Below, in pieces: positions 5,840-62,416 of a DNA stretch of 64,000 nt. Position 1 is the stretch's first letter; every line of letters starts with the position of its first letter. The stretch comes from Escherichia phage EscoHU1. A program made the translations under genes and the position numbers. The notes beneath the pieces are model-generated. The model was given only the letters and a program-made list of their open reading frames with translations, ran no database searches and had not been told where the DNA came from. The stretch is taken from sequence record NC_133119.1. The stretch is one strand, 5' to 3'.

Positions 5840-5869
5840 GTTTGATTCCTCTCTCGAATTTATAAATAT

Positions 5870-5898: not shown

Positions 5899-5945
5899 GT
5901 GAAAATTTCTGTATAATAGCCCTCGCTTAGAGGGCTATAACTACT

Positions 5946-6638: not shown

Positions 6639-7680
6639 CGTTAAAGTGATGAATCAGCCAGTCTACTGCGTTTACTGCTTCGTCCATACGAACTTTGTAG
6701 TCCGGGGAGTCGATGTAAACAGTACGCCCTTCAGGGAACTGATTTGGAAATTCTTTCTTCATCTGCTCGAACAGTTCAGAAGTAATTGAACGATCGGAGT
6801 TAATACGTAAACCATCATCTACCCACTTGACAGTAGGCGCTAGAACAATTACTAAATCGTAATGTTCTTCTTTTGCAATTGCTGTAACCACAGGGTTCTT
6901 ACGATGTTCATAAAGTCTGTGGTAGAACTCAGTAATAAAAGCATTTGTATCCACAAACATGATCTTATTTGCAGTACGTTCTGCTTCAAATTCTAGCTCT
7001 TTGTGTCTGAACGCAATTTTACTATAATCTTCGCTGGTAAGCAGATTTTCGTTACCAACTAGATCAACTTCACAATACGTTCGGCCATATTCTTCTACCC
7101 ACGAAGTGTTGTATAGCTTCGCAAGGTATTTTGTTAAAGTAGTCTTTCCCGAGCTTTCAGTCCCAATGATTACAACCTTACGCACGTAATCTTTACGAAC
7201 TACGCTAGGAAGAAACTCCCAATACTTCATAAGATCATTACGAATCATTGTAGCTGAGATTGGAACACGAGTCCGATCAGAATCTACAATATAATGACCA
7301 AACTTCGGCAGATATTTCTTATATTCTGCATCATAGTCTAGTTCGCTAGAGAAAATGGTGATCTCAGGCAAATGTCCATAATTTTCATTAAGGATTCTAG
7401 CATATTCCGGCCAACCATTCGGATATTCAGGAATATCATCTTCAATAATGTACTCTACCGAAACGTGCTCAATATCCGCGTAAGTTTGTTCTAACCAACG
7501 AAGTCGATTCTTTAACTGTAATACTTCCTGATCACGTGTGTTCTGCTTATCCAGCCAACGATTATCATGACTAACTACAACAATAACTCGTTCACACATA
7601 GTTGCTGCTGTGTTTATTAGGTTAATATGACCACGCGTTAATGGTGCGAACTTACCAATTACTAGACCAGTCTTAATCAT
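6625..7680 (-). CDS. nadR: NadR-like bifunctional NMN adenylyltransferase / ribosylnicotinamide kinase
   Basis: N-terminal GKFAPLTRGH (nucleotidyltransferase HxGH-type motif) and central P-loop GTESSGKTT; start taken at MIKTGLVIGKF with RBS. Confidence 0.7.
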   Translation of the reverse strand: MIKTGLVIGKFAPLTRGHINLINTAATMCERVIVVVSHDNRWLDKQNTRDQEVLQLKNRLRWLEQTYADIEHVSVEYIIEDDIPEYPNGWPEYARILNENYGHLPEITIFSSELDYDAEYKKYLPKFGHYIVDSDRTRVPISATMIRNDLMKYWEFLPSVVRKDYVRKVVIIGTESSGKTTLTKYLAKLYNTSWVEEYGRTYCEVDLVGNENLLTSEDYSKIAFRHKELEFEAERTANKIMFVDTNAFITEFYHRLYEHRKNPVVTAIAKEEHYDLVIVLAPTVKWVDDGLRINSDRSITSELFEQMKKEFPNQFPEGRTVYIDSPDYKVRMDEAVNAVDWLIHHFNVGEF

Positions 7681-7710
7681 ATTTGATTCCTCTCTCAAAT
7701 TTATAAATAT

Positions 7711-7739
7711 ATTATACAGAGAATTTAGCATTCAAGCAA
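7711..7739 (-). promoter_or_regulatory. T5-type early promoter upstream of the NadR-like gene
   Basis: Reverse complement TTGCTT-17-TATAAT with conserved leader ...CATAAATTTGAGAGAGG. Confidence 0.5.
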
Positions 7740-7855
7740 TCGAATTTTTTAACTTTTTAGAGGAAAATCGCAGGGCACTTAAGGGTAGCAGATGAGTGGT
7801 GAGGACCAGAAATTGTTACCCCAATAAAAATCCGGGGGCAATTTTTAAAGACCCC

Positions 7856-7884
7856 TTGACATTTTCGCTGGGATAGGATAAAGT
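7856..7884 (+). promoter_or_regulatory. sigma70-like promoter (TTGACA-17-TAAAGT) for the plus-strand islet
   Basis: TTGACATTTTCGCTG motif, nearly identical to the promoter at 37111. Confidence 0.4.
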
Positions 7885-7945
7885 ATATGTTATGGATGAG
7901 TGATCAAAGAGACACACATTTTCTATATACTAGGAGGTGTCAAAA

Positions 7946-8974
7946 ATGACAGAAGAAGTAGCTAAGAAACCTGAATCTCTAAGTGAAGTAGCAGCAGAAC
8001 TGCATCGTCACGAAGAATCAGACAAGAAAAAGTGGGAAAAGCTTAAAGCTCAAGAGCGAGCTGACGAGCATCATTATCATCATCACCATCATGAACACTA
8101 TGAGGAAGATGATGAAGACGACGAAGAAGAAGATGAACATGAACATCATGGTTATCACAAATATGGAGAAAGAAAAATGCAAGAACCAGTAAACGTATTC
8201 ACTAACGGCTTCCCTGGCCTGATGGGTGGTTACCCAGCTAACGCAGGTGCTTTCGGTGGAGAAGGTATGGGTCTATTCGGAGCTATCCTAATCGGTGCTC
8301 TATTAACAGGCGGATTCGGTGGATTTGGTGGATTTGGCGGACGTGGAGCAGGTGCTGTGGCTGAATTAACTGGTGTAGAAACTGTTCTGAGTAACCAAAA
8401 TACGTCAAGTATCCTATCTGCAATCAATACTGCTCGTACTGAAGCTAACCAGGGAACTGGTGCTGTTCTAAGCGCAGTAAATGGTGTAGGTGCTGCAGGT
8501 GCTGCTAGCACTCAGCAGATTCTGACTTCTCTGTACGGTACTGGTGCTAACCTGTCCAATCAGATCTGTCAGGAAACTCGTAGCGTTATTCAGGGTCAGT
8601 TTGACCTGTCTCGCCAGATCGATCAGTCCTTCGCGGCTAACCAGATCGCTCGTGCTCAAGACAAGTTTGATGCTGCTCAGATCGCTTTCCAGCAGACTAT
8701 TCAGACTAACAACCAGTTCGCTGCTGTAGCTGCACAGGCGTGCGCTAACCAGAACGCTCTGGAACGTCAGATCGCTGAATGTTGCTGTGAACTTCAGACT
8801 GCAATCGCTGGTGTAACTACTGCGCGTATTCAGGATGAATTAGATGAATGCCGTCTGCGTGAAGCAATCGCTGCAGGTAATGGTGCTAATGGTCAGGTAA
8901 TCAACCAAATCGCTGTAAGTCTTGGTGCTATCACTCAGACTCTAGCTGGTCTGCAGGCTAAACTGCCGGCTTAA
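7946..8974 (+). CDS. low-complexity protein: His/acidic N-terminus, glycine-zipper hydrophobic segment, Ala/Gln-rich C-terminus with Cys cluster
   Basis: ATG at 7946 with AGGAGG RBS (ORF track starts at GTG 7937); HHYHHHHHEHYEEDDEDDEEEDEHEHH, GLFGAILIGALLTGGFGGFGGFGG, C-terminal AECCCE; host-like codon usage. Confidence 0.55.
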   Translation: MTEEVAKKPESLSEVAAELHRHEESDKKKWEKLKAQERADEHHYHHHHHEHYEEDDEDDEEEDEHEHHGYHKYGERKMQEPVNVFTNGFPGLMGGYPANAGAFGGEGMGLFGAILIGALLTGGFGGFGGFGGRGAGAVAELTGVETVLSNQNTSSILSAINTARTEANQGTGAVLSAVNGVGAAGAASTQQILTSLYGTGANLSNQICQETRSVIQGQFDLSRQIDQSFAANQIARAQDKFDAAQIAFQQTIQTNNQFAAVAAQACANQNALERQIAECCCELQTAIAGVTTARIQDELDECRLREAIAAGNGANGQVINQIAVSLGAITQTLAGLQAKLPA

Positions 8975-8996
8975 TAATTAAGGGGAGGAGCCCATT

Positions 8997-9431
8997 ATGA
9001 GTAAATATGGTTTTGTGAACAACGGATTTAATCAACAAATGGGCTCCCAGCAGCCCGTTCCGGGTCTAGATAACCCTTACTTACAACAGTTGCAACAGCG
9101 TTTGGCAGAAGCACAAAATATGCAACAGCAGTTCCAACAACCTGGAACTGCTAACCCTATGCAGATGATGCAACAGCAAATGGTAGGGCAGCCGCAAATG
9201 CCTCAACAAATGCAGCCTCAGATGCAGCAAATGCAACAAATGCCTCAACAGCAGCAAGTTCAACAACTCCAACATCCGCAGGTATCTGCGGAAGGACAGG
9301 CTGTTCTAGCCCTTTTCGAAGACTTCGCTAAAACAGAGGATGGGAAGCAACTTGTATCGCTTATGGGTAAGTTTAACAGCTTCTGTCAGAGTCAGGTTGC
9401 AAAAGCTCAGAATGGGGGTAATAACTCCTAA
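8997..9431 (+). CDS. Gln/Met-rich low-complexity protein
   Basis: 144 aa, GGAGG RBS, long Q/M/P-rich tract (QQQMVGQPQMPQQMQPQMQQMQQMPQQQQ). Confidence 0.5.
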   Translation: MSKYGFVNNGFNQQMGSQQPVPGLDNPYLQQLQQRLAEAQNMQQQFQQPGTANPMQMMQQQMVGQPQMPQQMQPQMQQMQQMPQQQQVQQLQHPQVSAEGQAVLALFEDFAKTEDGKQLVSLMGKFNSFCQSQVAKAQNGGNNS

Positions 9432-9440
9432 GGAGAAATT

Positions 9441-9635
9441 ATGTGTTGTAGAAAACCTGTGTCATGCTGTCCTATGCCTGTAGCACGTTGTTGCTCTCCA
9501 GCAATGTTTACACAAATACCGGTGTTCAATCCCTTTGCCTTTAAGCCTACTCTTATCCTGCCCCCTAGAGTAGATTTTCAGTCAAGATTGGTCTCCCGTA
9601 TGGGTGGTTGCTGTACACCGAGAGTATGGTTCTAA
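9441..9635 (+). CDS. small Cys-rich protein
   Basis: 64 aa ORF with GGAGA RBS, CC pairs at both ends (MCCRKPVSCCP...GGCCTP). Confidence 0.4.
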   Translation: MCCRKPVSCCPMPVARCCSPAMFTQIPVFNPFAFKPTLILPPRVDFQSRLVSRMGGCCTPRVWF

Positions 9636-9647
9636 ACCAAAAAACAA

Positions 9648-9682
9648 AAGCCCCTACGTCTTTTGACTAGGGGCTTTCTTGT
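9648..9682. terminator. bidirectional intrinsic terminator
   Basis: GC hairpin AGCCCCTA...TAGGGGCT flanked by A-run upstream and T-run downstream, between convergent genes. Confidence 0.55.
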
Positions 9683-10213
9683 TTATAAATTTAAGTAATC
9701 TAGAGAAGGTATCACACCATCAAATTCTTCTAGGATAGCAAACTCTCCAGCAAATTCTTTCCTCATTTCGTTAGCTTTTGCTATCGCACTTCCAAGATCT
9801 TCGTAACCAAAAGATCCTCCTGATCTTTTAATACCTTCCTTATCTCTTATTAATACTCTCCATTTTTGCCTGTTCTTCTCCCAGCATACATTAGCATACC
9901 CAGACTTAGACTTTAATTTCTTATTTCTTTGATTTTGAGAATCTGTAGATTCTCTTAGATTGTCCCATGCATTATTATTTCTAATCCTATCTTTATGATC
10001 GACCATGCTAGGTAGGTATCCTTTTACATAAAGGAATGCTAGAACATGGGCTAAGTACATTTTTCCAGAGATCTGAATTCTGATATATCCATCAGATGTT
10101 AGGCTTCCCGCAATGCTGCCGGCCTTCTTGTTTCCTCTACTAACCTTATATGTAAACAATCCAGTTTCTTGATCATAGTCAAAAAGCTCTTTCAATTTTT
10201 CTTGAGTTAACAT
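9683..10213 (-). CDS. HNH homing endonuclease with AP2-type DNA-binding domain
   Basis: 176 aa; N-terminal HNH_3-like region (YIRIQISGKMYLAHVLAF...VDHKDRIRNNNAWDNLRE) and C-terminal AP2-like region (GYANVCWEKNRQKWRVLIRDKEG). Confidence 0.7.
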   Translation of the reverse strand: MLTQEKLKELFDYDQETGLFTYKVSRGNKKAGSIAGSLTSDGYIRIQISGKMYLAHVLAFLYVKGYLPSMVDHKDRIRNNNAWDNLRESTDSQNQRNKKLKSKSGYANVCWEKNRQKWRVLIRDKEGIKRSGGSFGYEDLGSAIAKANEMRKEFAGEFAILEEFDGVIPSLDYLNL

Positions 10214-10229
10214 AAGTTCCTTAAATACA

Positions 10230-10263
10230 GAAAAGCCCTGCGCTCTCCAGGGAACGCAGGGCT
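10230..10263 (-). terminator. intrinsic terminator downstream of the SPFH gene
   Basis: Hairpin GCCCTGCG...CGCAGGGC followed by a T-run on the minus strand. Confidence 0.5.
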
Positions 10264-10287
10264 TACTTCAGAGATTACATGCTGGTA

Positions 10288-11235
10288 TTACTTATTACGC
10301 ATATCCATGATCATCTGGCCATCGTAACCAGTTCCCACTACTGTTTGCGGTACACCACCTTGGTATTTTTCAGCACGAAGCATTTCAACTTCCAGCTGCT
10401 TCCAACGAATCATTTCAGGAGTAATGGTACGTTGCAGAGCGGCGTTAGCTTCAGCTTCTTTCTTAGCTGCGTACAGTTTAGCATCTGCGTCACGTTCGTT
10501 AGCTACTGCCATGTTTTCACGAGCAGAGCGATCTGCTTCAGCTTGCTTAACTTTCTGCTGTGCTTCTTGTTCAACACGAGCCAGTTCAGCTTTTGCTGCG
10601 TTAACTTGTTCTTCACGAACTTTTGTGTTCTGTACCTGTTCCATAATTACCGGTGGCAGAGTAATATCCTGAAGGAATACTTGCTTAACGGTGTAACCAT
10701 AAGGGCGCGCATACTCTTCTACTTCTTGCTGAATAGCAGTTTGCAGTTGAGCCTGAATCTTAGCGTCGAACAGATCTTGTGCTTTTGGTACAGACTTACC
10801 AAACTCACGAATCGTAGATAGCATCTTCTCTTCAACGTATTTGTTAAGAGCTTGATCCTGAGTACCTGCGTTAACACGGTTCATAGGAGCTTTAGCTCCA
10901 TCAAACTGTAACATAACGGTAATGTCAACAGTAGACTTAAACTTATCCTGGCTAGGAACCTGAAGTTTATCCAGTTTCATAGAAATATCTTTCGTACTAA
11001 AAGTATCAAAAGAGGCTAATGGGTTAACAATATGGAAGCCTGGCAATACAGGATTCGGGCTAACTTTACCCAGGAAAGTTTGAGTCTTAACAGTACCATC
11101 CTGAACAACTGTATAGGAATTGAGAGCCAGAATAAGAGCACCAAGACCAACAGCAGCACCAACACCCCAACGTTTAATAGTACGAATTACTTTTTGCTCA
11201 GAAGTCAGTTCTTTAGTGTTTTTAGTAAACATATA
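10288..11235 (-). CDS. SPFH/band-7 (HflC/HflK/prohibitin-like) membrane protein
   Basis: N-terminal transmembrane helix then band-7-like domain and long coiled-coil tail; start taken at MFTKNTKEL because the longer ORF would overlap tRNA-Arg. Confidence 0.6.
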   Translation of the reverse strand, partial: YMFTKNTKELTSEQKVIRTIKRWGVGAAVGLGALILALNSYTVVQDGTVKTQTFLGKVSPNPVLPGFHIVNPLASFDTFSTKDISMKLDKLQVPSQDKFKSTVDITVMLQFDGAKAPMNRVNAGTQDQALNKYVEEKMLSTIREFGKSVPKAQDLFDAKIQAQLQTAIQQEVEEYARPYGYTVKQVFLQDITLPPVIMEQVQNTKVREEQVNAAKAELARVEQEAQQKVKQAEADRSARENMAVANERDADAKLYAAKKEAEANAALQRTITPEMIRWKQLEVEMLRAEKYQGGVPQTVVGTGYDGQMIMDMRNK

Positions 11236-11265
11236 TTTCCTTTGTTTAGTTACAGTTAATAAAAT

Positions 11266-11340
11266 TGGCCGAGGTGACAGGATTCGAACCTGCATAAAGG
11301 AATTTAGAAGACTCCTGCCTATCCCTTAGACTACACCCCG
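11266..11340 (-). tRNA. tRNA-Arg (anticodon UCU)
   Basis: Acceptor CGGGGTG/CACCTCG, anticodon stem GGAGT/ATTCC with loop CTTCTAA, T-arm GCAGG-TTCGAAT-CCTGT, CCA. Confidence 0.55.
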
Positions 11341-51179: not shown

Positions 51180-51622
51180 TTAAAATTAAACTAACTCATC
51201 CAGATTGCATGCCAAAGATTGGTTCTGATGATGCCGCAGGTATGGATCTGCGTGCATTCTTCGGTACTAACCTTGCAGCAGATTTACGTGCTATTGCACC
51301 AGGCAAATCCCTTATGATTGACACCGGTGTCGCGGTGGAAATTCCGCGAGGTTGGTTTGGTTTGGTAGTTCCTCGCAGCTCTTTAGGTAAGCGTAAACTG
51401 ATGATCGCAAATACCGCAGGAGTGATCGATTCAGACTACCGTGGTACTATTAAGATGAACCTTTATAACTATGGTTCTGAAATGCAAACTCTGGAGAATT
51501 TCGAAAGACTTTGTCAGCTAGTGGTACTACCACACTACTCAACCCATCATTTTGAAATTGTTGACGAACTAGAGGAGACTGATCGTGGAGAAGGCGGCTT
51601 TGGAAGCTCAGGAAGTAAGTAA
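51176..51622 (+). CDS. dut: dUTPase
   Basis: 148 aa; VIDSDYRGTIK and C-terminal GGFGSSG dUTPase motifs. Confidence 0.85.
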   Translation: MIKIKLTHPDCMPKIGSDDAAGMDLRAFFGTNLAADLRAIAPGKSLMIDTGVAVEIPRGWFGLVVPRSSLGKRKLMIANTAGVIDSDYRGTIKMNLYNYGSEMQTLENFERLCQLVVLPHYSTHHFEIVDELEETDRGEGGFGSSGSK

Positions 51623-51638
51623 TTTTGCTGATCCTAAT

Positions 51639-51851
51639 ATGATAGGATCATTTGAACATCCCGCTACGTATCATCATGTTATGGTAGCAGAACCGGATGT
51701 GAATAACGTAGTTCTTAAGGTAGATCGTGAAGGCAATGTAATCCAGTGGGATGAAAAGGCTTTTGTCGAACTATGTAGCAATTCAGAAGATCCTACTCTT
51801 CGAGCTATGTTAGCAGTGTTTAACTTAGGTGTTATTGCAGGTAGCAGATAA
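51639..51851 (+). CDS. hypothetical protein
   Basis: Internal ATG of an 88-codon ORF after the dut stop; about 70 aa. Confidence 0.35.
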   Translation: MIGSFEHPATYHHVMVAEPDVNNVVLKVDREGNVIQWDEKAFVELCSNSEDPTLRAMLAVFNLGVIAGSR

Positions 51852-51856
51852 TAATA

Positions 51857-51892
51857 AACCCCAGTGGATTGTCCACTGGGGTTTTCTTTTAT
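51857..51892. terminator. bidirectional intrinsic terminator between convergent early and late units
   Basis: Hairpin AAACCCCAGTGG...CCACTGGGGTTT with A/T runs on both sides. Confidence 0.6.
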
Positions 51893-53976
51893 TTAGCAAG
51901 AAGTTGTTTTACCAATTCCTTGAGTTCATCAATTTCTTGCTGCTGCTTCTCAACCACTTCGTTAAGCTCGTTAAAAGCATTAACTAGCAAAGCGTTTACA
52001 CCAGCATGAGATACGCCGAGCATACTATCTTCTTTTTGTGGTTCGATCTTATATACTGCCTCTGGAAGAACAGCCTGTACATCCTGGGCTATAACACCAG
52101 CTTCAATGTTATAGGTAGTATCTTTTTCCTCTTTAAGGGTACTTCTCTTATAATATGTATAGCCTACCAGAGATTTAACCTTATCGCGAGCATTCTCAAT
52201 TTCCTTGAGGTTGGCTTTCATGCGTATGTCAGAAGTACTTACCCATTGACCTGCAGCAGCAGTACCACCACTATCAAAGCGATATTCAGCACCTTTACAG
52301 TATAAGCTAAGCTGTGCACCACCAGCAGCCCATAGCACAGCATCCATACCAGATACCCAATCCACACCCCATTTAACACTTTTCCATATAGCGTACGCTG
52401 CATCCGTAGCTTCATGCTCTACTAGCACTCCACAAGGTCTATCTCTCCAAGCAGTAAATGCCCCTCCTTTAATAGTACCACCTACTAAGCTTCCAGCACC
52501 ACCATCTGCTATACCCATACTTTTGAAGGTAGCTCGATCCCGTATTGGATCAGCTATTAAACCAAATGCCCCATGTACTTGTTGCCAAACACCCCAAGTA
52601 CCACTATCCATTGTACGTGTGCAGATAGAACTTTTCCAAGCACCTGTAAATAACGTAGCCCTTTGAGTTCTATAATTTGGATCAGGGTGGACCAAAGTTT
52701 CTAGAAAGAACCAAGCATCTTCTAATCCTGGGATTTGTTGGAAAGGGCGTACGCCTACAATATTAGAGCCAGGAGAAGGAGGAACTGTTAAGGTTGAATT
52801 AAAGTCTATACTGTCAATATTAAAACCTCCTGGATATCTTCCAGATATAGACTGTAGCAAGCCCCACTCACTTAATTCTAGATTTCTTCTAGCCTGAGCA
52901 GCTGAATTAGCCCCGGTACCTCCACTAGCTATTCCTAGCGGTATTTCCTGATTAGTTTCTAGATTGTAAGCTCCCCAAACCCCATCTGCTATTCTAAATA
53001 TCTTCTTAGCATCAGGACTACTCATTCTAGTATCTAGGGCAGTCTGACTAAATCTATTAATACCAAATTTAGTTTTAGCCCCTTCTATAGAATTAGCCCC
53101 TGTACCACCATTAGCAACTGGTACAGTAGACTGTGAATTGAATTGCTCTTGCCAACCTTTCCAATTACCAGTACCATCCAGAACGTTAGTCCAAGTACTT
53201 CCAGATAATCCAGTGGCTTTTAACATACCATACTGAGCAGCACCATTAATATCCACACCATGGCAATGGAAGTTATATGTCCACCATCCTTCAGTAACTG
53301 GAGGAATATGTGTAACACCATCTCCAGAAGAGTAGTATCCACTTTGTCCAGCGATTGCGATATAATTTAGAACATTCTCCCCATTAGGTATTACTTCAGC
53401 TAAGGCGCCAACTGGAACATTAAGATTTTTTCTTGCAGCTTTTGGAGTAGTTCCTCCAGTACCACCAAATGCAACTTTTAATGCTTGTACAGCCGCAGTA
53501 GAACTCTCAATTAAACCAAAATCTCCGCTATCATATATAAATAAAGAATATTTCTCATTGGGAGATACAATAAAAGTTCCATTACTCTGCTGACGAAGGC
53601 GTTCAACTTGTAAGGCCTTCTTAGCACCATCTAATGTAGTAGCACCAGTACCACCTTGAGAAATTTTAATAGCTTTAGTAAGTGCATTTAATTCTGTAAT
53701 ATCGTTATTAGCACCTTTAGCAGCTTTAGTATTTAAAGTAGTATTAATACCACCTAACGCAGTGTTGATATTACCAATTGATTCGTTAATACTATTGATA
53801 GATGCATCGGTAGCAGCTTTATCAGTATTATACTTTGAAATTTGTAGATATTTAGAAGTTAGCACAACAGCACCAGCTTCTCCGTCAATAGAGAAAACGC
53901 CGGCAACCGCGGCGTCTCTATTAACTACAACATAGGGGGCCATAGCCCCACTTTTTGGCATTAAATTACGTGACAT
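51889..53976 (-). CDS. tail fibre protein with C-terminal intramolecular chaperone domain (second L-shaped-fibre-like gene)
   Basis: 695 aa; Gly/Thr/Ala-rich shaft, C-terminal S74-type chaperone signature (...TSDIRMKANLKEI...VGYTYYKR...) and coiled-coil tail. Confidence 0.65.
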   Translation of the reverse strand: MSRNLMPKSGAMAPYVVVNRDAAVAGVFSIDGEAGAVVLTSKYLQISKYNTDKAATDASINSINESIGNINTALGGINTTLNTKAAKGANNDITELNALTKAIKISQGGTGATTLDGAKKALQVERLRQQSNGTFIVSPNEKYSLFIYDSGDFGLIESSTAAVQALKVAFGGTGGTTPKAARKNLNVPVGALAEVIPNGENVLNYIAIAGQSGYYSSGDGVTHIPPVTEGWWTYNFHCHGVDINGAAQYGMLKATGLSGSTWTNVLDGTGNWKGWQEQFNSQSTVPVANGGTGANSIEGAKTKFGINRFSQTALDTRMSSPDAKKIFRIADGVWGAYNLETNQEIPLGIASGGTGANSAAQARRNLELSEWGLLQSISGRYPGGFNIDSIDFNSTLTVPPSPGSNIVGVRPFQQIPGLEDAWFFLETLVHPDPNYRTQRATLFTGAWKSSICTRTMDSGTWGVWQQVHGAFGLIADPIRDRATFKSMGIADGGAGSLVGGTIKGGAFTAWRDRPCGVLVEHEATDAAYAIWKSVKWGVDWVSGMDAVLWAAGGAQLSLYCKGAEYRFDSGGTAAAGQWVSTSDIRMKANLKEIENARDKVKSLVGYTYYKRSTLKEEKDTTYNIEAGVIAQDVQAVLPEAVYKIEPQKEDSMLGVSHAGVNALLVNAFNELNEVVEKQQQEIDELKELVKQLLAK

Positions 53977-54018
53977 TAACTAGTACCTTTATAAGGGGGC
54001 TAGGCCCCTACTGTATTA

Positions 54019-57000
54019 TCATAGTGACGTTAAAGATGTAACAGCTTGCTTAAGTTGTTCTAACTCTTGCTCCAGTTTATTCATCTTATTACCCATATAA
54101 ACCATTGCACACGCCATATCTGTTAGAATAACATTACTATCAAGAGCAAGTGTGTCATCATTTCTGTCAGTTTCAATCTGGCGATCAATGTATTCCTCAC
54201 CATTTTCATCAACCCCGATCACATCCTCAAATACTGGTGAACCTGGGACAAGTTTCACATATTGCGGATCGATTTTTAACAGGTCTTGAGCTATCAGGCC
54301 AAAACGCTGAATATCAGATCCATTGTATTTGAACATCGTTGGCAACCATTGCATTACTCGATCATAACTTTCCTTTCCATCTGTGTAAACAATTTCTTTC
54401 TTTAAGTCACGATCAGATGTTGGGTTTTTTGCAAAGTCATAACCAACCCCCCACATATCTCCGGGCGAGTTTGCCCATGTTGAGAAAGTACCATTTACGT
54501 TAAACTCAAATCCTCTATGTTTATCGTTATCACCTAACAGCTTGAGTATTGTCCTGGACCATCCTTGGGCACCAGGGGATAACATACCAATTGCGAAACG
54601 TATGTTATAACCATTTGGGGTTGAAGTACCCCCAGCAACTACCGGACTAAATGACCCGTCGTTATTTACAGTGGAGATAGTGTTATAAGGAATTGCATTT
54701 CCTGATTGTGATGCTTCTATACCCCATCCATGATTATTGTAAAGAGCACCTGCATTGACCGCCCTGGTTTGTAAGTAACCTTGCGGATAGAAATCAAAAT
54801 CAGTACCATCAATTCCAGGACTATAAACTCTTAGGCGATGACATTTAATCTTGTCTGAACCAGATCTAACAGCCCCGGATAATGACATATCATTATACCA
54901 GTTATACCTAGTAAAGTTAGCCCAATCATCCAAAGGAACACTAGCCCCGGCATAAAGTTGGAGATTGTTTTGCTCACCCCCTTCCATTGTAAAACTATAA
55001 TTAGCACCAATTTTTATTTTCTGAGCACTAAATTGACCATTTTCGTCAAATTGGTAGAAAGCTGTTTTATCGGCGGTTGAGTTTGTAGTCCTTATTGTTG
55101 TTTTCGCTACACCAGATTGAAGTTCGTTGTAAATAGAGGAATACGAAATTAAGTTTCTAGAAGCATCGTGGTTCCTCATATAAAACAGCCCAGAATTGAA
55201 TCCATTATATAAGCTAGCGGCAACCTGAGCAAAGGTAGGTGTATTAACTTCGCCTAATTCTATGTTAGCCCTTGCATCTGCTGCATTCGTCGCCCCTGTA
55301 CCACCATTATTAATAGCTAGAATTCCTTGGGTATCATTATTTAAATCAGGCTTATTTGCAGAACCGTATAGAATATTAGTATGGATAGTAGGATTTTCAC
55401 CATCTAATTGATTATCATTTATAGTCCCGACAAAAACAATACCACTAGAGTATTGGGGGCAAATAAATGAGTGAGTATCCGCAGTTTTAGAATAAAATCC
55501 TGCAGAATACGATGGTAGTCCACCTATTCCTGTGTCATTTCTATAGTAGCCAGAACCAAAAGCTCTCATAGCTTTAAAAAGAGATACTAAATCAGGCTCG
55601 TTTAAAGTGAGTCCTGCACCACCTAAGCCAAAAGCACCACGAAGTAAAACCTCACCATTAATGCCATCCCAAACATTCTTAGTAACAACGTTACCTAGAG
55701 AAATATTACCACTCTCGTCTGGGCGAATAGTTCCGTTAACCATTGCTACATAAGGAAGTTTAATAGCTCCGGTATCATCAGCAGGACCAATTCCATTCAC
55801 AGTAGTGATATAGGGAATTTGCTCTTTAATTGCGCCAGCATCTTCCTCTCCCTTAGTTGGAGCGCGGAATGCTTGCCCTTGCATCATATCTGGTAAACGG
55901 AACGTCGTAGATCCATCACCAGTGGAGAAGTAAAGAGTTGCACCAGCTTGCCATTGTTCTTCAGTAACAGAAGGGATTAAGCCAGCCTCAATAGCTTCCC
56001 AAGTATCTGGATAATCTACACGAAGAACTTCACGACCATCAGCAGGAAGAACACCAGGGTAGCCAACACCTGAATCTTTATCATAAGGGAACCAAGTAAC
56101 TTCACCCAGCCATAAAGAGGGGTTACCCCCAGGAAGAGTAATCTGTACGTTACCTGCGTCATCTGCATGAACGTTATTGATTGATACGAGTTTCTGTTCA
56201 ATTTCTACTAATTCTAGGACAGGAGCCTCAGCAGTACCAGCAACCTTATACCAACCATATTTTGAATCAGTTTGGTTCCAGACTAGAATCTTTTCACCCA
56301 GAACACGATTTGCAACATCTGCATCAGCTTCTGCTTTTGTCTTATAAACTTTGATGAAACCAGATATATCTTCTTTATCCAGCTTGCTATCTACAATCTG
56401 AGCTGCGCGATCGGCTTCAGCCTTAGCACGATTTGCCTCAGTAGTAGCATCTACAGCCTTATCTCCTGCTTCTACAGCAGAACCAGCCGCATTAGTTTCT
56501 GATTCTTTAGCATTTAATTCTGATTGTTTAGCGGAAGCAGCATGTTCTCCAGCAGTTGTAGCAGCAGCTTCTGCACCTGCTTTTGCTGTTTCAGCACCAG
56601 TCTTAGCAGTTTCTGCAGCTGTCTGAGCTTGTTGAGCCGCAGTTTTAGCTTGTTCGGCAAGTCTACGACTGGTCTCCGCATTTTGAGCAGCTAATTCAGC
56701 AGAATTCCTGAATCCTTTAGATTCTTCCGCCGATGTAGCGGATGCTTCAGCACTCTTTTGTGACAGACCAGCTTGTCTCTCAGCTTCCGCAGCAGATTCC
56801 GCAGATTGAGTTGCAGATGTTTCAGAAGAAGTAGCATAAATTGCAGCTAGGTTCTCCGAGTCCTTAGCATTTGTTTCAGATTCTTTTGCTGCAATTTCGG
56901 AATCTTTTGCTGCCGCAGCAGAAGCAGCAGAGGCTTCTACAGCAGCAGTTAATTCACTAGCAGTAATAGAACTAATAGAATTACCTAAAACTACTGTATA

Positions 57001-57081
57001 TTTAGGATACTTACTAGCAGTAGTTGTAGTGTCATCTATGTTCAGAATCTGCTGTACAATAATTTTAGTTTTAAGTGCCAT
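54019..57081 (-). CDS. ltf: L-shaped tail fibre protein with C-terminal intramolecular chaperone domain
   Basis: 1020 aa; N-terminal Ala/Glu-rich coiled region, beta-rich shaft, C-terminal chaperone/autocleavage region (DRDLKKEIVYTDGKESYDRVMQWLP) and terminal coiled coil. Confidence 0.7.
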   Translation of the reverse strand: MALKTKIIVQQILNIDDTTTTASKYPKYTVVLGNSISSITASELTAAVEASAASAAAAKDSEIAAKESETNAKDSENLAAIYATSSETSATQSAESAAEAERQAGLSQKSAEASATSAEESKGFRNSAELAAQNAETSRRLAEQAKTAAQQAQTAAETAKTGAETAKAGAEAAATTAGEHAASAKQSELNAKESETNAAGSAVEAGDKAVDATTEANRAKAEADRAAQIVDSKLDKEDISGFIKVYKTKAEADADVANRVLGEKILVWNQTDSKYGWYKVAGTAEAPVLELVEIEQKLVSINNVHADDAGNVQITLPGGNPSLWLGEVTWFPYDKDSGVGYPGVLPADGREVLRVDYPDTWEAIEAGLIPSVTEEQWQAGATLYFSTGDGSTTFRLPDMMQGQAFRAPTKGEEDAGAIKEQIPYITTVNGIGPADDTGAIKLPYVAMVNGTIRPDESGNISLGNVVTKNVWDGINGEVLLRGAFGLGGAGLTLNEPDLVSLFKAMRAFGSGYYRNDTGIGGLPSYSAGFYSKTADTHSFICPQYSSGIVFVGTINDNQLDGENPTIHTNILYGSANKPDLNNDTQGILAINNGGTGATNAADARANIELGEVNTPTFAQVAASLYNGFNSGLFYMRNHDASRNLISYSSIYNELQSGVAKTTIRTTNSTADKTAFYQFDENGQFSAQKIKIGANYSFTMEGGEQNNLQLYAGASVPLDDWANFTRYNWYNDMSLSGAVRSGSDKIKCHRLRVYSPGIDGTDFDFYPQGYLQTRAVNAGALYNNHGWGIEASQSGNAIPYNTISTVNNDGSFSPVVAGGTSTPNGYNIRFAIGMLSPGAQGWSRTILKLLGDNDKHRGFEFNVNGTFSTWANSPGDMWGVGYDFAKNPTSDRDLKKEIVYTDGKESYDRVMQWLPTMFKYNGSDIQRFGLIAQDLLKIDPQYVKLVPGSPVFEDVIGVDENGEEYIDRQIETDRNDDTLALDSNVILTDMACAMVYMGNKMNKLEQELEQLKQAVTSLTSL

Positions 57082-57503
57082 TATTGAGTTACTCCATCGC
57101 TGATGTATACTTTACCTTCCATAATACGGAAAGAACTGACTTCAGAGCCAATTACATCACGAGTCATTAGGATATCATAATAACCAGCAAAACGTTGTCT
57201 TGGGTTATACTTATCACGTTCTTTAGATGCTTTTTCACCAATATTAGTAACGTCTGCAACGGAAAGACTAATTGCAGCAGCACCTTGAGCAGCATCAATA
57301 ACACGAGTTTTAAAGTTAGCTAGAACCTCGGCGTTCTCATCTAAACTAGATTTAATAGTTCCTCGGAGTGAATACCCCGTCAAATTAACAGGAACTTCTG
57401 TTGGTGGATATACACTATCATCAACATCCATAAATTGCATGATAAGACCATAAGGTACTTTTTCATCAACAACAATATCAATAACTCGGTTTTCTGTACT
57501 CAT
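57081..57503 (-). CDS. tail collar protein (T5 p132-like)
   Basis: 140 aa ORF immediately upstream of the fibre gene; size and position match T5 p132. Confidence 0.45.
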
Positions 57504-57508: not shown

Positions 57509-59566
57509 TTACCTTATATGGATATACCCACTATTTAGGTCTATCTTCATCTTGTAGTATGCTTCAGGATTCCCTGATAATGCAGCATTTCTATCGTAGA
57601 TTATATTAACACCGATTTGCGATAAGAAGGCATTTCCTGCCACAATCTTATCCGCAGTAACAGTTCCATTAACAATCATATTGCCATGAAGAACCATTGC
57701 AGGGTTAATCCATCCAGCCCCGTTCCATTGACGGGTAAATGCTGTTTGTGGAGCATTACTGTTAAATTGTGTTAGAACATCGTATTTAACCGGAGGTTTT
57801 CCAAAGTTATTTTGAAAGAATGCATTAGCCTGTCCATCATCCCAACCACCTAATCCAGGAATACCCATGGAGTACATCCCAGGACCACGCTGTCCATCAT
57901 GTCCTATAGTACCTTCAGTACCACTCCACTGAACTACATCAGACCAGCTAGTACCTTCAAGAAGTTTGTTAGTAACTGGATCAAGTGTACCTGTAGTCGC
58001 ATAGATATTTTGTGTCATATCTGTACGGTTAGGTGGAGTTTTTGACCAACCAGGAGGCGGATAATCTTGTTCTAGCGGTTTGGCCGGTAAAGATGTTGCT
58101 AACTTATAAACAAATACTGTTTGTTTACCTTGTAAACCAGTCCCAATATCTACGTCACCATTTGGCGTTCCAATTACTACACCACTAGAGATACGCAGAG
58201 TAGTACCATCATAACGTATCCATTGTGTAGCATTACCAATGTCTAATTTAGCTTTGGCAGAGGTATTATCCATACCCATCCAAATACCAGAGTTATTATC
58301 TCCCCAAGATTTACCTTGAGTGTAAATTGCTGGATTATCTTTACCAGACAAGTTAGTCATAATAAAGTTTGCAGCATTAATATCTCTAGTAATTACTTTA
58401 CCATCAACGTTAACCACACGATTTATAGGATCGAAAGAGATAGGTGCTTTTCCTTCTTCATCTAGCAGACCAATGTTAATAGCACCAGTAGCTGCATCAA
58501 TTAAGAATGTCTGTCTCCAGATTTCTCCATCTTTCATACTACCCTTAATAAAGGCGTAGTTAACATCAATACCCGTCTCATTGACAAAGCTATTGTCTAG
58601 GGGAGTATCTTCATTCAGAATAAATGTTACAGGAGCTGATTCTGTTATATCTTGTTTGTTTGGTCCCCAGGCAATTGATGATACCTTAAAAGTATGGTCA
58701 ACTTTCCATGGGAATGATATAATCGTTGCAGCTCTAGCAGCGCCCACGTTTATCTTTTGAGCTTTAGCCCATCCGGTTTTAGCGTATTCCTCGGAGTTTA
58801 TATAAGTAACCAAGAACTCACGAACGTTAGCACCAGCACCACGTTCCCAGTTCCACTCAATTCTAACATCATATCGTTCTTTACCATCAGCAATTCGTGC
58901 AGCTTTAAAAACAATATCGATAGGTGCAGTAGGAGGAACAAAGTTATAGGCTACAGTTAGAATATTAGGGAACTCATAGTATCCAGAAGAATCAACTGTA
59001 ATACCATCAGGCATAGTTACTTGACCAGATATTCTGATCTTATAATCTCCGATAGGAACTCCACCAAATTTAATAGTAGAACCTAAAGCCCCAATGTAAT
59101 ACTTAGTCCAAGGACTATCTTCAGTAGCTGTACTTTTCAACTCAATAGTACAGTAACTTGCTTCACCAGTTGTTTCCACAACAACTATCGGTGCGCCTAC
59201 CCCAACATCCACGGGTTCTGACTCAGATCTTGCTGTAACAATTATTGGCTTCTCTTTTGTTTTAAAGTTAGTTTCATTAGAGAGGTTAATACCAATTTTT
59301 GCATTTAAAAGTTCTGAGTCAATAATTGAGTCATAAAAAGCTCCCTGAACCTGATAGGTAGTTGAGGGAGTTAAATTATTGATCATAACAAAGAAAGTGT
59401 CGATTCCAGTGAAATCTCTTCTATCCACTTCTTCGCCAAGTTTAAGCCAGAATGATCTACCGATAACATCGTAGTCGGTATAGATAGAATGCTGGATATA
59501 CGCCATCGTATATCCAGTCATAATACTATTTAAGACCATCTTGGCTGGTGCATTATTCGAAATCAT
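57509..59566 (-). CDS. baseplate / central fibre protein (T5 pb4-like)
   Basis: 685 aa beta-rich protein between the hub and collar genes. Confidence 0.55.
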
Positions 59567-62416
59567 TTAAATAGATGCCCAATCCACAGATTGCTCGCCA
59601 TTATCACCTTCTGCTCTTATACGGAAGCGTAACTTCCTATTAATACCCAGAGCATCCTCGTTATGAAGAGCGTAGTCTGCCTTATTGTATATCAGTAGAT
59701 AATCGTAGACATACTGATCTTCAATTCGTACACTTCTTAATAAACGATCTAGGTTATCGTAGATTTCGAGAGTGTAGAAGATTCCATCAATGATATCTTC
59801 TTCTGGAATTCTATCCCAGGCCAACTTAACATCTGGTCCCACAAACTCCGATGCATCTCCTGAGGCTGTATTAGTAACCCTGAAGTTACTAACGACGCTT
59901 AAGTTTTTAGCAGAGTTAAGTTCTACCGATAATGTTACAGGAGAACTTCGTCTACCATTAATATCTACAGCTCTAATCTCAAAGACTGCTAAACCAGCAG
60001 GTTCTCCAATAATTTCTTGGATCATTCGTAGATTTGGATTAGTTTCTAGTTGCTGTACGATATAAGGATCAGCATGTCCTGAGTGAACGATGGAGTAATA
60101 AACAACATTATTAGTTAAGCTAGGAAACCAAGATAACTCACCATTCTTACCAATAGATCCTACTTGTCCACCCGGTGTTGGTGTATACATAAAGTCTCTA
60201 GGAGGCAGTACGTTATTACTAACATCAGGAATATCGTTACCACTATTATCAACCTGCTCGGAGTTAATGAATACATCCTCACCATACTCTTGCAGTGTAA
60301 TATTAATCTTACCTTCTCTAGAGTTTTCAACTTCATCAACTAGGAAGTATTTCTTATCCCAACCATAACGATCATATGTAAAAGCAATCGGATCGTTAGG
60401 CTCAATGCCTATGAAATGATATGGTAATGAGAATGTGAGAGTTCGTGAGTAACGAGACTTTTTCAGTTCTCTATCTGCAAAGCTACGTGCAGTATAGTAG
60501 TTAGTAATGTTTGCAAAAGAAAGCTGAAGTTTTTTATCTAACCCTTTATCTTGTTCTTTAAATATAGAGTTAAAGAATGTAATGGAGTTAGTTTTCCAGC
60601 TTAATGCGGGATCTAATATAGAGGCTTGTACTGAGTTGAATTTATTTCTACCAGTAGTATCTGATAGCTCCAGATCACCATAGGTATCTAAGAAGTCAAT
60701 CTCCAATGGAGTACTCGAGAACTTCTCAACAGTTATTCTATACTGGCCAGATAAGTTGTTGATAGCACCACCATAAGACTCTATTAATCCCTGCACGTTT
60801 TTAAATACTGACTCAGAGGTATCGAGAATAGTATTCATTTGAACTATTTGTCTATTCTCTCCTACAGCATCAGTCCAACCAACGTATCTCCAATAGGGTT
60901 GCCAAGAAACCTGGTAGGATTCATCAATGATATCCAGAATAGCTGCTTCTTGAATTAATTGCTGGAGAGGGAACTGATCAATAGTGATATTAGCACCGTA
61001 GCGGTCAGAGGTTAGGTAGTCCAGAGTTTGCCAGATACCATTTAAGCTAGTCTTATCAGCAGTTACTCTACCATCTGAATGATAGATCTTAATCTTCTTA
61101 CCTTGAACTTCAGCGCTAACTTCTGGAATTTCTGTTCTGTTTTCATTAATAGTAAAGCGAACAATAGCATAAGCAGTATCTAACAGTTTATAACGAGAGT
61201 CCCAGTATTCCGGTCCATTCTCATTCATGTTCTGTAGATAGAAACCTTTCTCTTTTGCAATGTTAACTAGAACATCAGCAGCAGATTGATCAGCCTTACC
61301 ATGATAAGTCCAGATACGGATATCTCCATTACCATCATTATACTTATATTCCTGTCCATGAACAGAAGGTTCAGAGCTTGGTTGACCAGAAGCAATACGT
61401 TGCATGGTATCACCAGCTACTTTCTTAGTACCAAAGCAAGTACGAGACTTACTATCATTAGGATCAATACAGATCATTGGTACATCACCAAAGTAGAAAT
61501 CTAGGAATCCATCAATCTCACCCTCACAGAAGGCGTACACTACATATACGATATTAGGGTTATGCAGTTCAGTATCTGCAAATACTGGGATTCCAGGAAT
61601 TTTCTGAACTCCATATACTACTGGCAGGAATTTAGCAGCTAAGTTAAAATCAAGATCTACTTCCTTAGTTACAGTCTCATAGTATTTCTTTAGACTATAG
61701 CTTCTAGAAAGACCAAATAACTTTTTCTTAGATTGTAACTTATAACGTTCTTCCTGAACCTGATACTTAGCAAGAATAGAAATACTCTTGTTAGCGTGGA
61801 AGAACCCGTAGTCTTCTTGATATTCAGGTCGCTTAGCACCATTAGACGGAACTAATTGGCCGGCAACAATCTCAAGCCCTCTATGGTCAGCATCATCTGT
61901 GAAACGTCCATTTACTCTATCAAAGTCATAGAATTGGTTTGAACAGTTCCATGTAATAACGGATGTACTAACTCCGGAAGTACCAATGTTATCCTTAATA
62001 CCACCACCAGTAATTTTACCACGGAAGTAAAGTAAAGGACCATTAGTGTCTGGATCTACAGGAAGAATGTTACCTTCTTCATCAATAACCGCTTGATGGA
62101 TTGAAATAGATCTATCTAGGAAGGATACACCATTTTGGACTAGTTTTAATACTTCATCCTCAGCAGTACCTGTGATAGTAAAAGAAAGGCTACCAATGGA
62201 AAGTTTTCTATTTTGTTTATGTGTTGTTATAGACTTAACTTTACCGGATGTGTAAAGAATACCATTATAAATTACATCCCTAAAATAGTCTGTAAGATAA
62301 ATGTACGCAGAACTTGATCCGGTAGAGCTTGGCAATTCAAGAGTAATAAGGCATGCAGTTTTTATTTTATTATTGGTTCTTAGATACTCTCTTGCACTGT
62401 CAAGAATTTTCTTCAT
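59567..62416 (-). CDS. baseplate hub protein (T5 pb3-like)
   Basis: 949 aa protein directly downstream of the Dit-like gene. Confidence 0.6.
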   Translation of the reverse strand: MKKILDSAREYLRTNNKIKTACLITLELPSSTGSSSAYIYLTDYFRDVIYNGILYTSGKVKSITTHKQNRKLSIGSLSFTITGTAEDEVLKLVQNGVSFLDRSISIHQAVIDEEGNILPVDPDTNGPLLYFRGKITGGGIKDNIGTSGVSTSVITWNCSNQFYDFDRVNGRFTDDADHRGLEIVAGQLVPSNGAKRPEYQEDYGFFHANKSISILAKYQVQEERYKLQSKKKLFGLSRSYSLKKYYETVTKEVDLDFNLAAKFLPVVYGVQKIPGIPVFADTELHNPNIVYVVYAFCEGEIDGFLDFYFGDVPMICIDPNDSKSRTCFGTKKVAGDTMQRIASGQPSSEPSVHGQEYKYNDGNGDIRIWTYHGKADQSAADVLVNIAKEKGFYLQNMNENGPEYWDSRYKLLDTAYAIVRFTINENRTEIPEVSAEVQGKKIKIYHSDGRVTADKTSLNGIWQTLDYLTSDRYGANITIDQFPLQQLIQEAAILDIIDESYQVSWQPYWRYVGWTDAVGENRQIVQMNTILDTSESVFKNVQGLIESYGGAINNLSGQYRITVEKFSSTPLEIDFLDTYGDLELSDTTGRNKFNSVQASILDPALSWKTNSITFFNSIFKEQDKGLDKKLQLSFANITNYYTARSFADRELKKSRYSRTLTFSLPYHFIGIEPNDPIAFTYDRYGWDKKYFLVDEVENSREGKINITLQEYGEDVFINSEQVDNSGNDIPDVSNNVLPPRDFMYTPTPGGQVGSIGKNGELSWFPSLTNNVVYYSIVHSGHADPYIVQQLETNPNLRMIQEIIGEPAGLAVFEIRAVDINGRRSSPVTLSVELNSAKNLSVVSNFRVTNTASGDASEFVGPDVKLAWDRIPEEDIIDGIFYTLEIYDNLDRLLRSVRIEDQYVYDYLLIYNKADYALHNEDALGINRKLRFRIRAEGDNGEQSVDWASI

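What the first reader, a model, noticed from the sequence alone, without database searches (positions are those of the whole stretch)
51889..57081. Two consecutive tail-fibre genes, each with its own C-terminal chaperone domain
Both the 1020-aa and the 695-aa proteins end in a chaperone-like block with a terminal coiled coil (…SDRDLKKEIVYTDGKESYDRVMQ… and …TSDIRMKANLKEI…VGYTYYKR…). Two such fibres suggest a branched or dual-receptor L-shaped fibre, as described for some T5-like phages, and mark this region as the host-range determinant.
Basis: partly seen in the sequence, partly recalled or inferred. Interest (0 to 1): 0.5.

Follow-up and report, generated by a model that had tools for sequence, protein, structure and literature searches.

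The report
Known two-protein T5-like lateral tail fibre
These are the LtfA and LtfB genes of a T5-like Salmonella/E. coli phage: a two-protein side tail fibre, already described in phage DT57C, in which each protein ends in a self-cleaving folding-helper domain. The finding is correct but ordinary.

Summary
Two adjacent minus-strand ORFs (54019-57081, 1020 aa; 51889-53976, 695 aa) each end in a Pfam Peptidase_S74 intramolecular-chaperone domain. Both have the catalytic Ser/Lys pair (LtfA S889/K894, LtfB S582/K587) and a long terminal helix.

The window is an Epseptimavirus (T5-like) genome. The locus has the same gene order as DT57C: dut, ltfB, ltfA, ltfC, pb4, pb3.

- LtfA residues 1-442 are close to the solved DT57C LtfA (PDB 8HQZ, E 1e-245).
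- LtfA residues 1-81 match the tail-attachment end of T5 pb1 (67% identity).
- LtfA residues 223-442 match phiEco32 gp14, and LtfB residues 1-56 match phiEco32 gp15 and DT57C LtfB. This is the module pair proposed to join LtfB onto LtfA.
- The distal parts of the two proteins are unrelated to each other, which fits two different specificities.

Close relatives are already deposited: LtfA is 93.9% identical to that of Salmonella phage EH7, and LtfB is 94.8% identical to that of SIY1lw. Only the pairing of these two alleles seems unrecorded. The branch itself, the cleavage and the receptors are inferred by homology and were not shown here. This is already known and of low interest.

The parts
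57081..57503 (-). ltfC (p132-like collar protein, 140 aa) that anchors the lateral fibre to the tail
   Evidence: Pfam PF23926 LtfC, E 1.9e-15. 95% identical to DT57C LtfC. Its stop overlaps the ltfA start by 1 nt, as in DT57C.
54019..57081 (-). ltfA, 1020 aa: the proximal lateral tail fibre protein, with its own distal tip
   Evidence: Residues 1-442 match DT57C LtfA, PDB 8hqz_d, E 1e-245. phrog_5481 tail fiber. 93.9% identical to Salmonella phage EH7 over the full length.
56839..57081 (-). LtfA residues 1-81: tail/collar attachment end shared with T5 pb1
   Evidence: 67% identity to T5 pb1 residues 1-80, E 4e-31. 98% identical to DT57C in the first 50-aa bin.
55756..56415 (-). LtfA residues 223-442: module homologous to kuravirus proximal fibre proteins; proposed docking site for LtfB
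   Evidence: 42% identity to phiEco32 gp14 residues 239-461, E 7.6e-46. Match to SU10 gp12, PDB 7z47_D, residues 249-462. The docking role is inferred from PMC4728585.
54418..55329 (-). LtfA residues 585-888: variable distal (receptor-binding) region, the mature C-terminus after cleavage
   Evidence: Identity to DT57C and SIY1lw falls to 14-52% here, while EH7 stays at 68-98%. AF2 gives a beta-rich model, mean pLDDT 78.6. The best PDB match is the T5 pb1 tip with its chaperone, 4uw8, E 2.9e-5, but TM is only about 0.25. Relatives at about 45% identity and 99% coverage occur on contigs of about 50 kb, including named phages atuna, slyngel and G29-2.
54022..54417 (-). LtfA residues 889-1020: Peptidase_S74 intramolecular chaperone, S889/K894, terminal helix
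   Evidence: Pfam PF13884, 31.2 bits. Invariant S, D, R and K in 45 relatives. Aligns to K1F S911/K916 and T5 S1264/K1269. Fold matches the MyRF ICA domain 7dc3, TM(target) about 0.6.
53995..54009 (-). GC-rich hairpin in the 42-nt ltfA-ltfB spacer, just upstream of the ltfB ribosome-binding site
   Evidence: A hairpin of different sequence sits at the same place in EH7, SIY1lw, DT57C and phiEco32 g14/g15. Function not tested.
51889..53976 (-). ltfB, 695 aa: second lateral fibre protein
   Evidence: phrog_12321 tail fiber, matched 1-695 of 695. 94.8% identical to SIY1lw ORF44. Same position as DT57C ltfB.
53809..53976 (-). LtfB residues 1-56: conserved N-terminal peptide, proposed to plug into LtfA
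   Evidence: 64% identity to phiEco32 gp15 residues 1-52, E 1e-16. Nearly identical to the DT57C LtfB N-terminus. 90-96% identity in the first bin against every T5-like relative compared.
52234..52863 (-). LtfB residues 372-581: variable distal (receptor-binding) region
   Evidence: 10-26% identity to the EH7 and DT57C LtfB here, against 86-100% to SIY1lw. No significant similarity to the LtfA tip. The AF2 model is unreliable in most of this part, pLDDT below 50 over roughly residues 345-540.
51892..52233 (-). LtfB residues 582-695: Peptidase_S74 intramolecular chaperone, S582/K587, terminal helix
   Evidence: Pfam PF13884, 54 bits. Matches the S16 gp37 chaperone 6f45 (E 1.8e-12) and MyRF ICA 7dc3 by sequence. 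Matches 7dc3 by fold, prob 1.0, TM(target) 0.62. pLDDT 82-93 over most of the domain.
51856..51884 (.). Bidirectional intrinsic terminator (13-bp stem) ending the fibre operon and the convergent dut operon
   Evidence: T5 has an annotated 'efficient bidirectional rho-independent terminator' at the same position.

Best explanation
This is the lateral (L-shaped) tail-fibre operon of a T5-like Epseptimavirus in its two-gene form, ltfA-ltfB, as described for phages DT57C and DT571/2.

Inferred mechanism:
1. LtfA trimerises. Its N-terminal ~80 residues insert into the LtfC collar on the tail.
2. Its Ala/Glu-rich shaft leads to a mid-fibre module (residues 223-442), which captures the conserved N-terminal ~50 residues of an LtfB trimer. 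Each fibre is therefore branched and ends in two different tips.
3. Each protein carries its own C-terminal S74 intramolecular chaperone. This domain drives trimer folding of the adjacent tip and then cuts itself off just before the catalytic Ser (before S889 in LtfA, before S582 in LtfB). The mature fibres would be about 888 and 581 residues long.
4. The two unrelated tips bind two different surface polysaccharides (O-antigens). This lets the phage pass the O-antigen shield of more than one serotype before the separate pb5 protein engages the outer-membrane receptor.

Shown here: gene order, domain content, the catalytic dyad, the homology of every module, and the mosaic pattern. Inferred from DT57C, T5 and K1F work: the LtfA-LtfB contact, the cleavage, and the ligands.
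For: - Genome identity: 98.8% nucleotide identity to Epseptimavirus genomes over positions 27000-51800.
- Gene order identical to DT57C and T5.
- LtfC is 95% identical to DT57C LtfC.
- LtfA residues 1-442 match the solved DT57C LtfA, E 1e-245. LtfA residues 1-81 match T5 pb1 at 67% identity.
- LtfA residues 223-442 match phiEco32 gp14 (E 7.6e-46), and LtfB residues 1-56 match phiEco32 gp15 (64% identity, E 1e-16). This is the same module pair used to argue for the branch in PMC4728585.
- Cryo-EM of DT57C found no robust LtfB density on the tail core, which its authors take as indirect support for attachment via LtfA (PMC10713586).
- S74 domains with the Ser/Lys dyad are present in both proteins. 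Fold matches are to MyRF ICA and to the T5 pb1 tip with its chaperone.
- The tips are unrelated to each other. They are the variable, recombining parts of the genes, as expected for receptor-binding regions.
- The two-gene arrangement is common: 195 phage records cover at least 80% of LtfB and 107 cover at least 80% of LtfA. It is described as known in PMC8594841.
Against: - Nothing here shows the LtfA-LtfB contact directly. No solved structure matches the LtfB N-terminus.
- In the related kuravirus SU10, the homologous pair is described as the proximal and distal parts of one kinked fibre, not explicitly as a branch.
- The LtfB tip could not be modelled with confidence, so its fold and its ligand type are unknown.
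- The LtfA S74 hit is modest (31 bits).
- The SIY1lw paper states that SIY1lw carries no LtfB, although its ORF44 is 94.8% identical to this LtfB. This is an annotation disagreement in the literature, not evidence against the model.
Confidence: 0.88

Rival explanations
1. Serial fibre rather than branched fibre. LtfB extends LtfA end to end, as the distal half of one kinked fibre, and only LtfB carries the working receptor-binding tip.
For: The SU10 paper describes the homologous gp12 and gp13 as the proximal and distal proteins of one long fibre with an elbow. T5-type fibres are L-shaped.
Against: - The module homologous to gp14/gp12 lies at LtfA residues 223-442, not at the end. About 450 more residues follow it, ending in a variable tip with its own S74 chaperone. 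An S74 domain marks a free, matured C-terminal tip.
- In DT57C and DT571/2, exchanging the LtfA C-terminal region switches host specificity, and LtfB recognises a different O-antigen.
Confidence: 0.06
2. Two independent fibre sets. LtfB attaches directly to the tail (collar, pb4 or pb3), not through LtfA.
For: At low contour, weak densities near the DT57C tail tip were interpreted as LtfB folded back onto the tip. No structure of the LtfA-LtfB junction exists.
Against: - LtfB has no similarity to any T5 protein, while the tail proteins are nearly the same as in T5, which has one fibre protein.
- No robust LtfB density was found on the tail core.
- The LtfB N-terminus and the LtfA 223-442 module occur together both here and in kuraviruses.
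Confidence: 0.04
3. One or both proteins are enzymatic tailspike-like depolymerases or deacetylases rather than simple binders.
For: S74 chaperones were first described on an enzyme, the K1F endosialidase. The LtfB tip fold is unresolved.
Against: - No Pfam hydrolase, lyase or esterase domain at E below 0.01 in either protein.
- The LtfA tip model best resembles the non-enzymatic T5 pb1 tip.
- According to PMC4728585 and PMC8594841, T5-like lateral fibres bind O-antigen.
Confidence: 0.02

Closest known systems
LtfA/LtfB branched lateral tail fibres of T5-like phages DT57C and DT571/2 (Golomidova 2016, PMC4728585; Ayala 2023, PMC10713586, PDB 8HQZ)
   Same: - Same gene order: dut, ltfB, ltfA, ltfC, pb4, pb3.
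- LtfC is 95% identical.
- LtfA residues 1-~420 are 78-98% identical.
- The LtfB N-terminus is about 90% identical.
- Both proteins end in S74 domains.

   Different: - The distal parts are different alleles: 10-38% identity beyond LtfA residue ~450 and LtfB residue ~150.
- The proteins are shorter: 1020 against 1076 aa, and 695 against 788 aa.
- In DT57C the two C-terminal regions resemble each other and recombine. Here the two tips show no significant similarity.
- The genus is Epseptimavirus rather than Tequintavirus.
Salmonella phages EH7/LVR16A (LtfA) and vB_SalS-SIY1lw/GEC_vB_N3 (LtfB)
   Same: Full-length near-identity: LtfA is 93.9% identical to EH7, and LtfB is 94.8% identical to SIY1lw.
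   Different: Neither phage carries both alleles. The EH7 LtfB (625 aa) diverges after about residue 300, and the SIY1lw LtfA (1117 aa) diverges after about residue 600. No record in the phage collection matches the whole locus above 82% nucleotide identity at 93% coverage.
Phage T5 L-shaped tail fibre pb1 (single 1396-aa protein; tip plus chaperone structure 4UW8)
   Same: - N-terminal attachment end, 67% identity.
- C-terminal S74 chaperone with a Ser/Lys dyad at aligned positions.
- The LtfA tip model gives its best PDB match to 4UW8.
   Different: T5 has one fibre gene and no LtfB. The shaft and tip sequences are unrelated. The structural match has a low TM score (about 0.25), so similarity of the tip fold is only suggestive.
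Kuravirus fibre pair: phiEco32 gp14/gp15 and SU10 gp12/gp13 (PMC9509320, PDB 7Z47)
   Same: LtfA residues 223-442 match gp14 residues 239-461. LtfB residues 1-56 match gp15 residues 1-52. A GC hairpin lies between the two genes.
   Different: These are podovirus fibres attached to the adaptor, not to a siphovirus collar. By inspection, gp14 has no recognisable S74 motif at its C-terminus. The rest of the proteins are unrelated.
Peptidase S74 intramolecular chaperone domains (K1F endosialidase, S16 gp37, MyRF ICA)
   Same: - Pfam hits above threshold.
- Ser-x4-Lys dyad.
- C-terminal position.
- Long terminal helix.
- Fold match.

   Different: Self-cleavage and chaperone activity were not tested here.

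Membership tests
Peptidase S74 / intramolecular chaperone auto-processing domain | Sequence match to PF13884 above the curated cut-off, at the C-terminus of a fibre or spike protein | tested here: met
   LtfA 889-943 scores 31.2 bits and LtfB 582-642 scores 54 bits, against a cut-off of 22.
Peptidase S74 / intramolecular chaperone auto-processing domain | Catalytic Ser and Lys five residues apart (K1F S911/K916; T5 S1264/K1269) | tested here: met
   The invariant T-S and K columns in alignment A1 fall on LtfA S889/K894 and LtfB S582/K587. The Ser, Asp and Lys are conserved in 45 and 30 relatives. The K1F and T5 residue numbers were counted from A1 and agree with my recollection of the literature.
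Peptidase S74 / intramolecular chaperone auto-processing domain | Fold of solved chaperone domains, ending in a long helix that forms the trimeric coiled coil | tested here: met
   Foldseek matches to MyRF ICA 7dc3, prob 1.0, TM(target) 0.58-0.62, for both models. The LtfA model also matches T5 4uw8. Terminal helices of about 38 residues. These are monomer models only, so trimerisation was not modelled.
Peptidase S74 / intramolecular chaperone auto-processing domain | Autoproteolytic release of the domain after folding | not testable with these tools
   Needs protein chemistry, or mass spectrometry of virions.
DT57C-type two-protein (LtfA/LtfB) lateral tail fibre of T5-like phages | Two consecutive fibre genes between dut and ltfC/pb4/pb3 in a T5-like genome | tested here: met
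DT57C-type two-protein (LtfA/LtfB) lateral tail fibre of T5-like phages | LtfA N-terminus homologous to the T5 pb1 / DT57C LtfA attachment end, with an LtfC collar gene present | tested here: met
DT57C-type two-protein (LtfA/LtfB) lateral tail fibre of T5-like phages | LtfA mid-region homologous to phiEco32 gp14, and LtfB N-terminus homologous to phiEco32 gp15 | tested here: met
   E 7.6e-46 and E 1e-16. The LtfB N-terminus is nearly identical to that of DT57C LtfB.
DT57C-type two-protein (LtfA/LtfB) lateral tail fibre of T5-like phages | Physical attachment of LtfB to the virion through LtfA (branched fibre) | not testable with these tools
   Only single-chain structure prediction was available. 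No solved junction exists.
DT57C-type two-protein (LtfA/LtfB) lateral tail fibre of T5-like phages | Two tips with different receptor specificities | tested here: inconclusive
   The tips are unrelated in sequence and are the variable parts of the genes. This fits different ligands, but no ligand was identified.

The most novel reading that the evidence does not exclude
The only untested novelty is combinatorial. This phage pairs an EH7-type LtfA tip with a SIY1lw-type LtfB tip, a pairing not found in the phage collection searched. It could give an O-antigen (serotype) range that neither relative has. A second, smaller possibility is that the hairpin conserved in position, but not in sequence, between the two fibre genes, from T5-like phages to kuraviruses, is a regulatory element that sets the LtfA:LtfB ratio.
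Probability: 0.15. Interest if true: 0.25.

Novelty: already known. Interest (0 to 1): 0.1.

Why it matters
The practical value is for annotation and phage-therapy design. The two tips (LtfA residues ~585-888 and LtfB residues ~372-581) are the modules to swap or mutate to change which O-antigen serotypes the phage can penetrate. Correct labelling also helps: close relatives are annotated only as 'hypothetical protein', and one paper states that its phage has no LtfB although it encodes a 94.8%-identical protein. Nothing here changes current understanding of fibre biology.

Tried and rejected
- A PDB sequence search with the LtfB N-terminal 66 residues found nothing meaningful; the best hit was FtbO at E 0.04. 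The junction therefore cannot be placed on a solved structure.
- The AF2 model of LtfB residues 345-695, built on a 30-sequence alignment, was poor outside the S74 domain (mean pLDDT 59.8). Tip-fold matches from that model (pyocin fibre, phi812, OspA) were disregarded.
- The large protein search with the LtfB tip returned only 29 hits and missed the ~95%-identical phage proteins found by tblastn. Its candidate cap was apparently filled by S74 word matches.
- Promoter-like sites in the locus are no more frequent than in shuffled sequence (20 against 16.9 ± 5.1). No internal promoter is claimed.
- I looked for recombinogenic similarity between the ltfA and ltfB C-terminal parts, as reported for DT57C. 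Only short GGTGA-motif matches were found.
- Small plus-strand ORFs inside the genes (for example 52006-52305, 54150-54332) were treated as chance ORFs. No evidence for them was sought beyond the ORF list.
- Some loci fetched in parallel calls did not reach the scripting sandbox, so SIY1lw was fetched again.
Full report
**What is there.** Region 51889-57081 holds exactly two intact minus-strand ORFs: 54019-57081 (1020 aa) and 51889-53976 (695 aa).
- Upstream on the same strand lie a 140-aa ORF (57081-57503), a 685-aa ORF (57509-59566) and a 949-aa ORF (59567-62416).
- Downstream, on the opposite strand, lie the SbcC-like, D14, flap-endonuclease and dUTPase genes.
- Pfam identifies the 140-aa protein as LtfC. 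It identifies the 685-aa protein as the T5 straight-fibre protein pb4, with all four of its domains.
- Positions 27000-51800 are 98-99% identical at the nucleotide level to Epseptimavirus genomes such as PECP14, STK8t, Seabear and Stitch. The window is therefore part of a T5-like phage genome.
- The order dut, ltfB, ltfA, ltfC, pb4, pb3 is the same as annotated in DT57C. It is also the same as in T5, except that T5 has one fibre gene.

**The C-terminal blocks.**
- Both proteins hit Pfam Peptidase_S74 ('chaperone of endosialidase') above the curated cut-off. LtfA residues 889-943 score 31.2 bits and LtfB residues 582-642 score 54 bits.
- I aligned the last 190 residues of both proteins with DT57C LtfA and LtfB, T5 pb1 and the K1F endosialidase. 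The only invariant columns were T-S, a K five residues later, and one G.
- Counting along that alignment puts these columns on K1F S911/K916 and T5 S1264/K1269. As far as I recall the literature, these are the published catalytic pairs. In the window proteins they are S889/K894 and S582/K587.
- The Ser, Asp, Arg and Lys are invariant among 45 relatives of the LtfA tip. The Ser, Asp and Lys are nearly invariant among 30 relatives of the LtfB tip.
- By sequence, the LtfB block also matches the solved chaperone of phage S16 gp37 (6F45, E 1.8e-12) and the MyRF ICA domain (7DC3).
- AlphaFold2 models of the two C-terminal regions are confident over most of each S74 domain and end in a single helix of about 38 residues. 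Foldseek places both on the MyRF ICA domain (prob 1.0, TM on target about 0.6). It places the LtfA model on the T5 pb1 tip with its chaperone (4UW8, E 2.9e-5, but TM only about 0.25).

**Are both fibre proteins, and how are they joined?**
- LtfA residues 1-442 match the solved DT57C LtfA chain (8HQZ_d, E 1e-245). Residues 1-81 are 67% identical to the T5 pb1 N-terminus, the end that enters the collar. LtfC is 95% identical to DT57C LtfC.
- LtfA residues 223-442 match phiEco32 gp14 residues 239-461 (42% identity, E 7.6e-46) and SU10 gp12 (7Z47_D).
- LtfB residues 1-56 match phiEco32 gp15 residues 1-52 (64% identity, E 1e-16) and are nearly identical to the DT57C LtfB N-terminus.
- This is the module pair that Golomidova et al. 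used, together with mutant host ranges, to propose that LtfB hangs on LtfA and that each protein carries its own receptor-binding tip (PMC4728585).
- The DT57C cryo-EM study found no robust LtfB density on the tail core. Its authors took that as indirect confirmation (PMC10713586).
- PHROGs assigns both proteins to tail-fibre families, and LtfB matches phrog_12321 end to end. The second refutation condition, a non-fibre second ORF, is also not met.

**Modularity.** I computed identity in 50-residue bins.
- LtfA is 90-100% identical to EH7 up to about residue 750 and 68-100% identical after that.
- LtfA resembles SIY1lw only up to about residue 600, and DT57C only up to about residue 420.
- LtfB is 86-100% identical to SIY1lw throughout.
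- LtfB shares only its first ~100 residues with DT57C LtfB, and its first ~100 residues plus a short middle block with EH7 LtfB.
- The two tips of this phage show no significant similarity to each other. In DT57C, by contrast, the two C-terminal regions are related and recombine.
- The LtfA distal 436 residues have relatives at about 45% identity and 99% coverage on many contigs of about 50 kb, including phages named atuna, slyngel and vB_EcoS_G29-2.
- The LtfB distal part is shared with fibres of SE1Kor, SRT8 and 118970_sal2.
- This is the usual pattern of fibre-tip exchange among enterobacterial siphoviruses, noted in the BASEL study. That study also states that T5-like lateral fibres may consist of one large polypeptide or of two or more proteins (PMC8594841).

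**How common and how new.**
- At the protein level, 195 phage records cover at least 80% of LtfB and 107 cover at least 80% of LtfA.
- The nearest full-length relatives are 93.9% identical (EH7, for LtfA) and 94.8% identical (SIY1lw, for LtfB).
- No record in the collection carries the whole locus at high identity. The best is 81.7% nucleotide identity over 93% of the locus. The allele pairing may therefore be unrecorded, which is a trivial kind of novelty.

**Mechanism.** The steps shown here are gene order, domains, the catalytic dyad, module homology and the mosaic pattern. The following steps are inferred from work on DT57C, T5 and K1F:
1. An LtfA trimer is anchored through LtfC.
2. An LtfB trimer docks on LtfA residues 223-442.
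3. The S74 domains chaperone tip folding and then cleave themselves off, before S889 in LtfA and before S582 in LtfB.
4. The two tips bind two different O-antigens.
5. pb5 then binds the outer-membrane receptor. pb5 is encoded next to the terminase genes (PMC8594841), which by T5's gene order lies beyond this window. I did not search the window for it.

The rivals each have little support:
- A serial fibre. Its main support is that the SU10 paper calls the homologous pair the 'proximal' and 'distal' proteins of one fibre.
- Independent attachment of LtfB to the tail.
- Enzymatic tips.

**Verdict.** The feature is already known and of low interest.

Noticed in passing
window 53995-54009 (ltfA-ltfB spacer 53977-54018); L005 6064-6105; L007 3874-3915; L001 4151-4188; L008 7549-7588: A GC-rich hairpin sits between the two fibre genes, just before the ltfB Shine-Dalgarno sequence. 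Hairpins of different sequence occupy the same spot in EH7, SIY1lw, DT57C and between phiEco32 g14 and g15. The structure is therefore conserved while the sequence is not. It could be an attenuator or an mRNA-stability element.
   Followed up: partly
window 51856-51884: A perfect 13-bp-stem bidirectional terminator lies between the convergent dut-side operon (the last ORF, 51585-51851, matches phrog_5592) and ltfB. T5 has an annotated bidirectional terminator at the same place.
   Followed up: partly
window 335-11340, minus strand: A cluster of 14 tRNA genes: Lys x2, Met x2, Pro, Asp, Asn, Cys, Trp, Glu, Tyr, Leu, Ser and Arg. This is typical of T5-like phages.
   Followed up: no
protein P0031: A 389-aa protein 82% identical to the LtfA tip is labelled 'Brucella melitensis' and lies on a 115-kb contig. 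This is the size of a T5-like phage genome, so it is probably phage contamination or mislabelling in that assembly.
   Followed up: no
L007 3916-6003 (SIY1lw ORF44) compared with window 51889-53976: The SIY1lw paper (PMC12887010) says the phage lacks LtfB. However, its ORF44 is 94.8% identical to this LtfB and has the conserved LtfB N-terminus. This looks like an annotation or interpretation error in the literature.
   Followed up: partly
LtfB residues 108, 171, 290, 352; LtfA residue 593: There is a repeated 'x-GGTGA/G-x' motif followed by a short conserved stretch (for example ISQGGTGATTLDGAK), four times in LtfB and once in LtfA. It is shared with kuravirus fibre proteins. It probably marks repeated shaft or knot units.
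   Followed up: no
LtfA residues 342-403 (window about 55873-56058): The segment containing '...GDGSTTFRLPD...' recurs as a second copy in DT57C LtfA (residues 609-670) and in phiEco32 gp15 (residues 257-308). From memory, it resembles phage tail-collar-type domains. Pfam gave no hit at E below 0.01.
   Followed up: no
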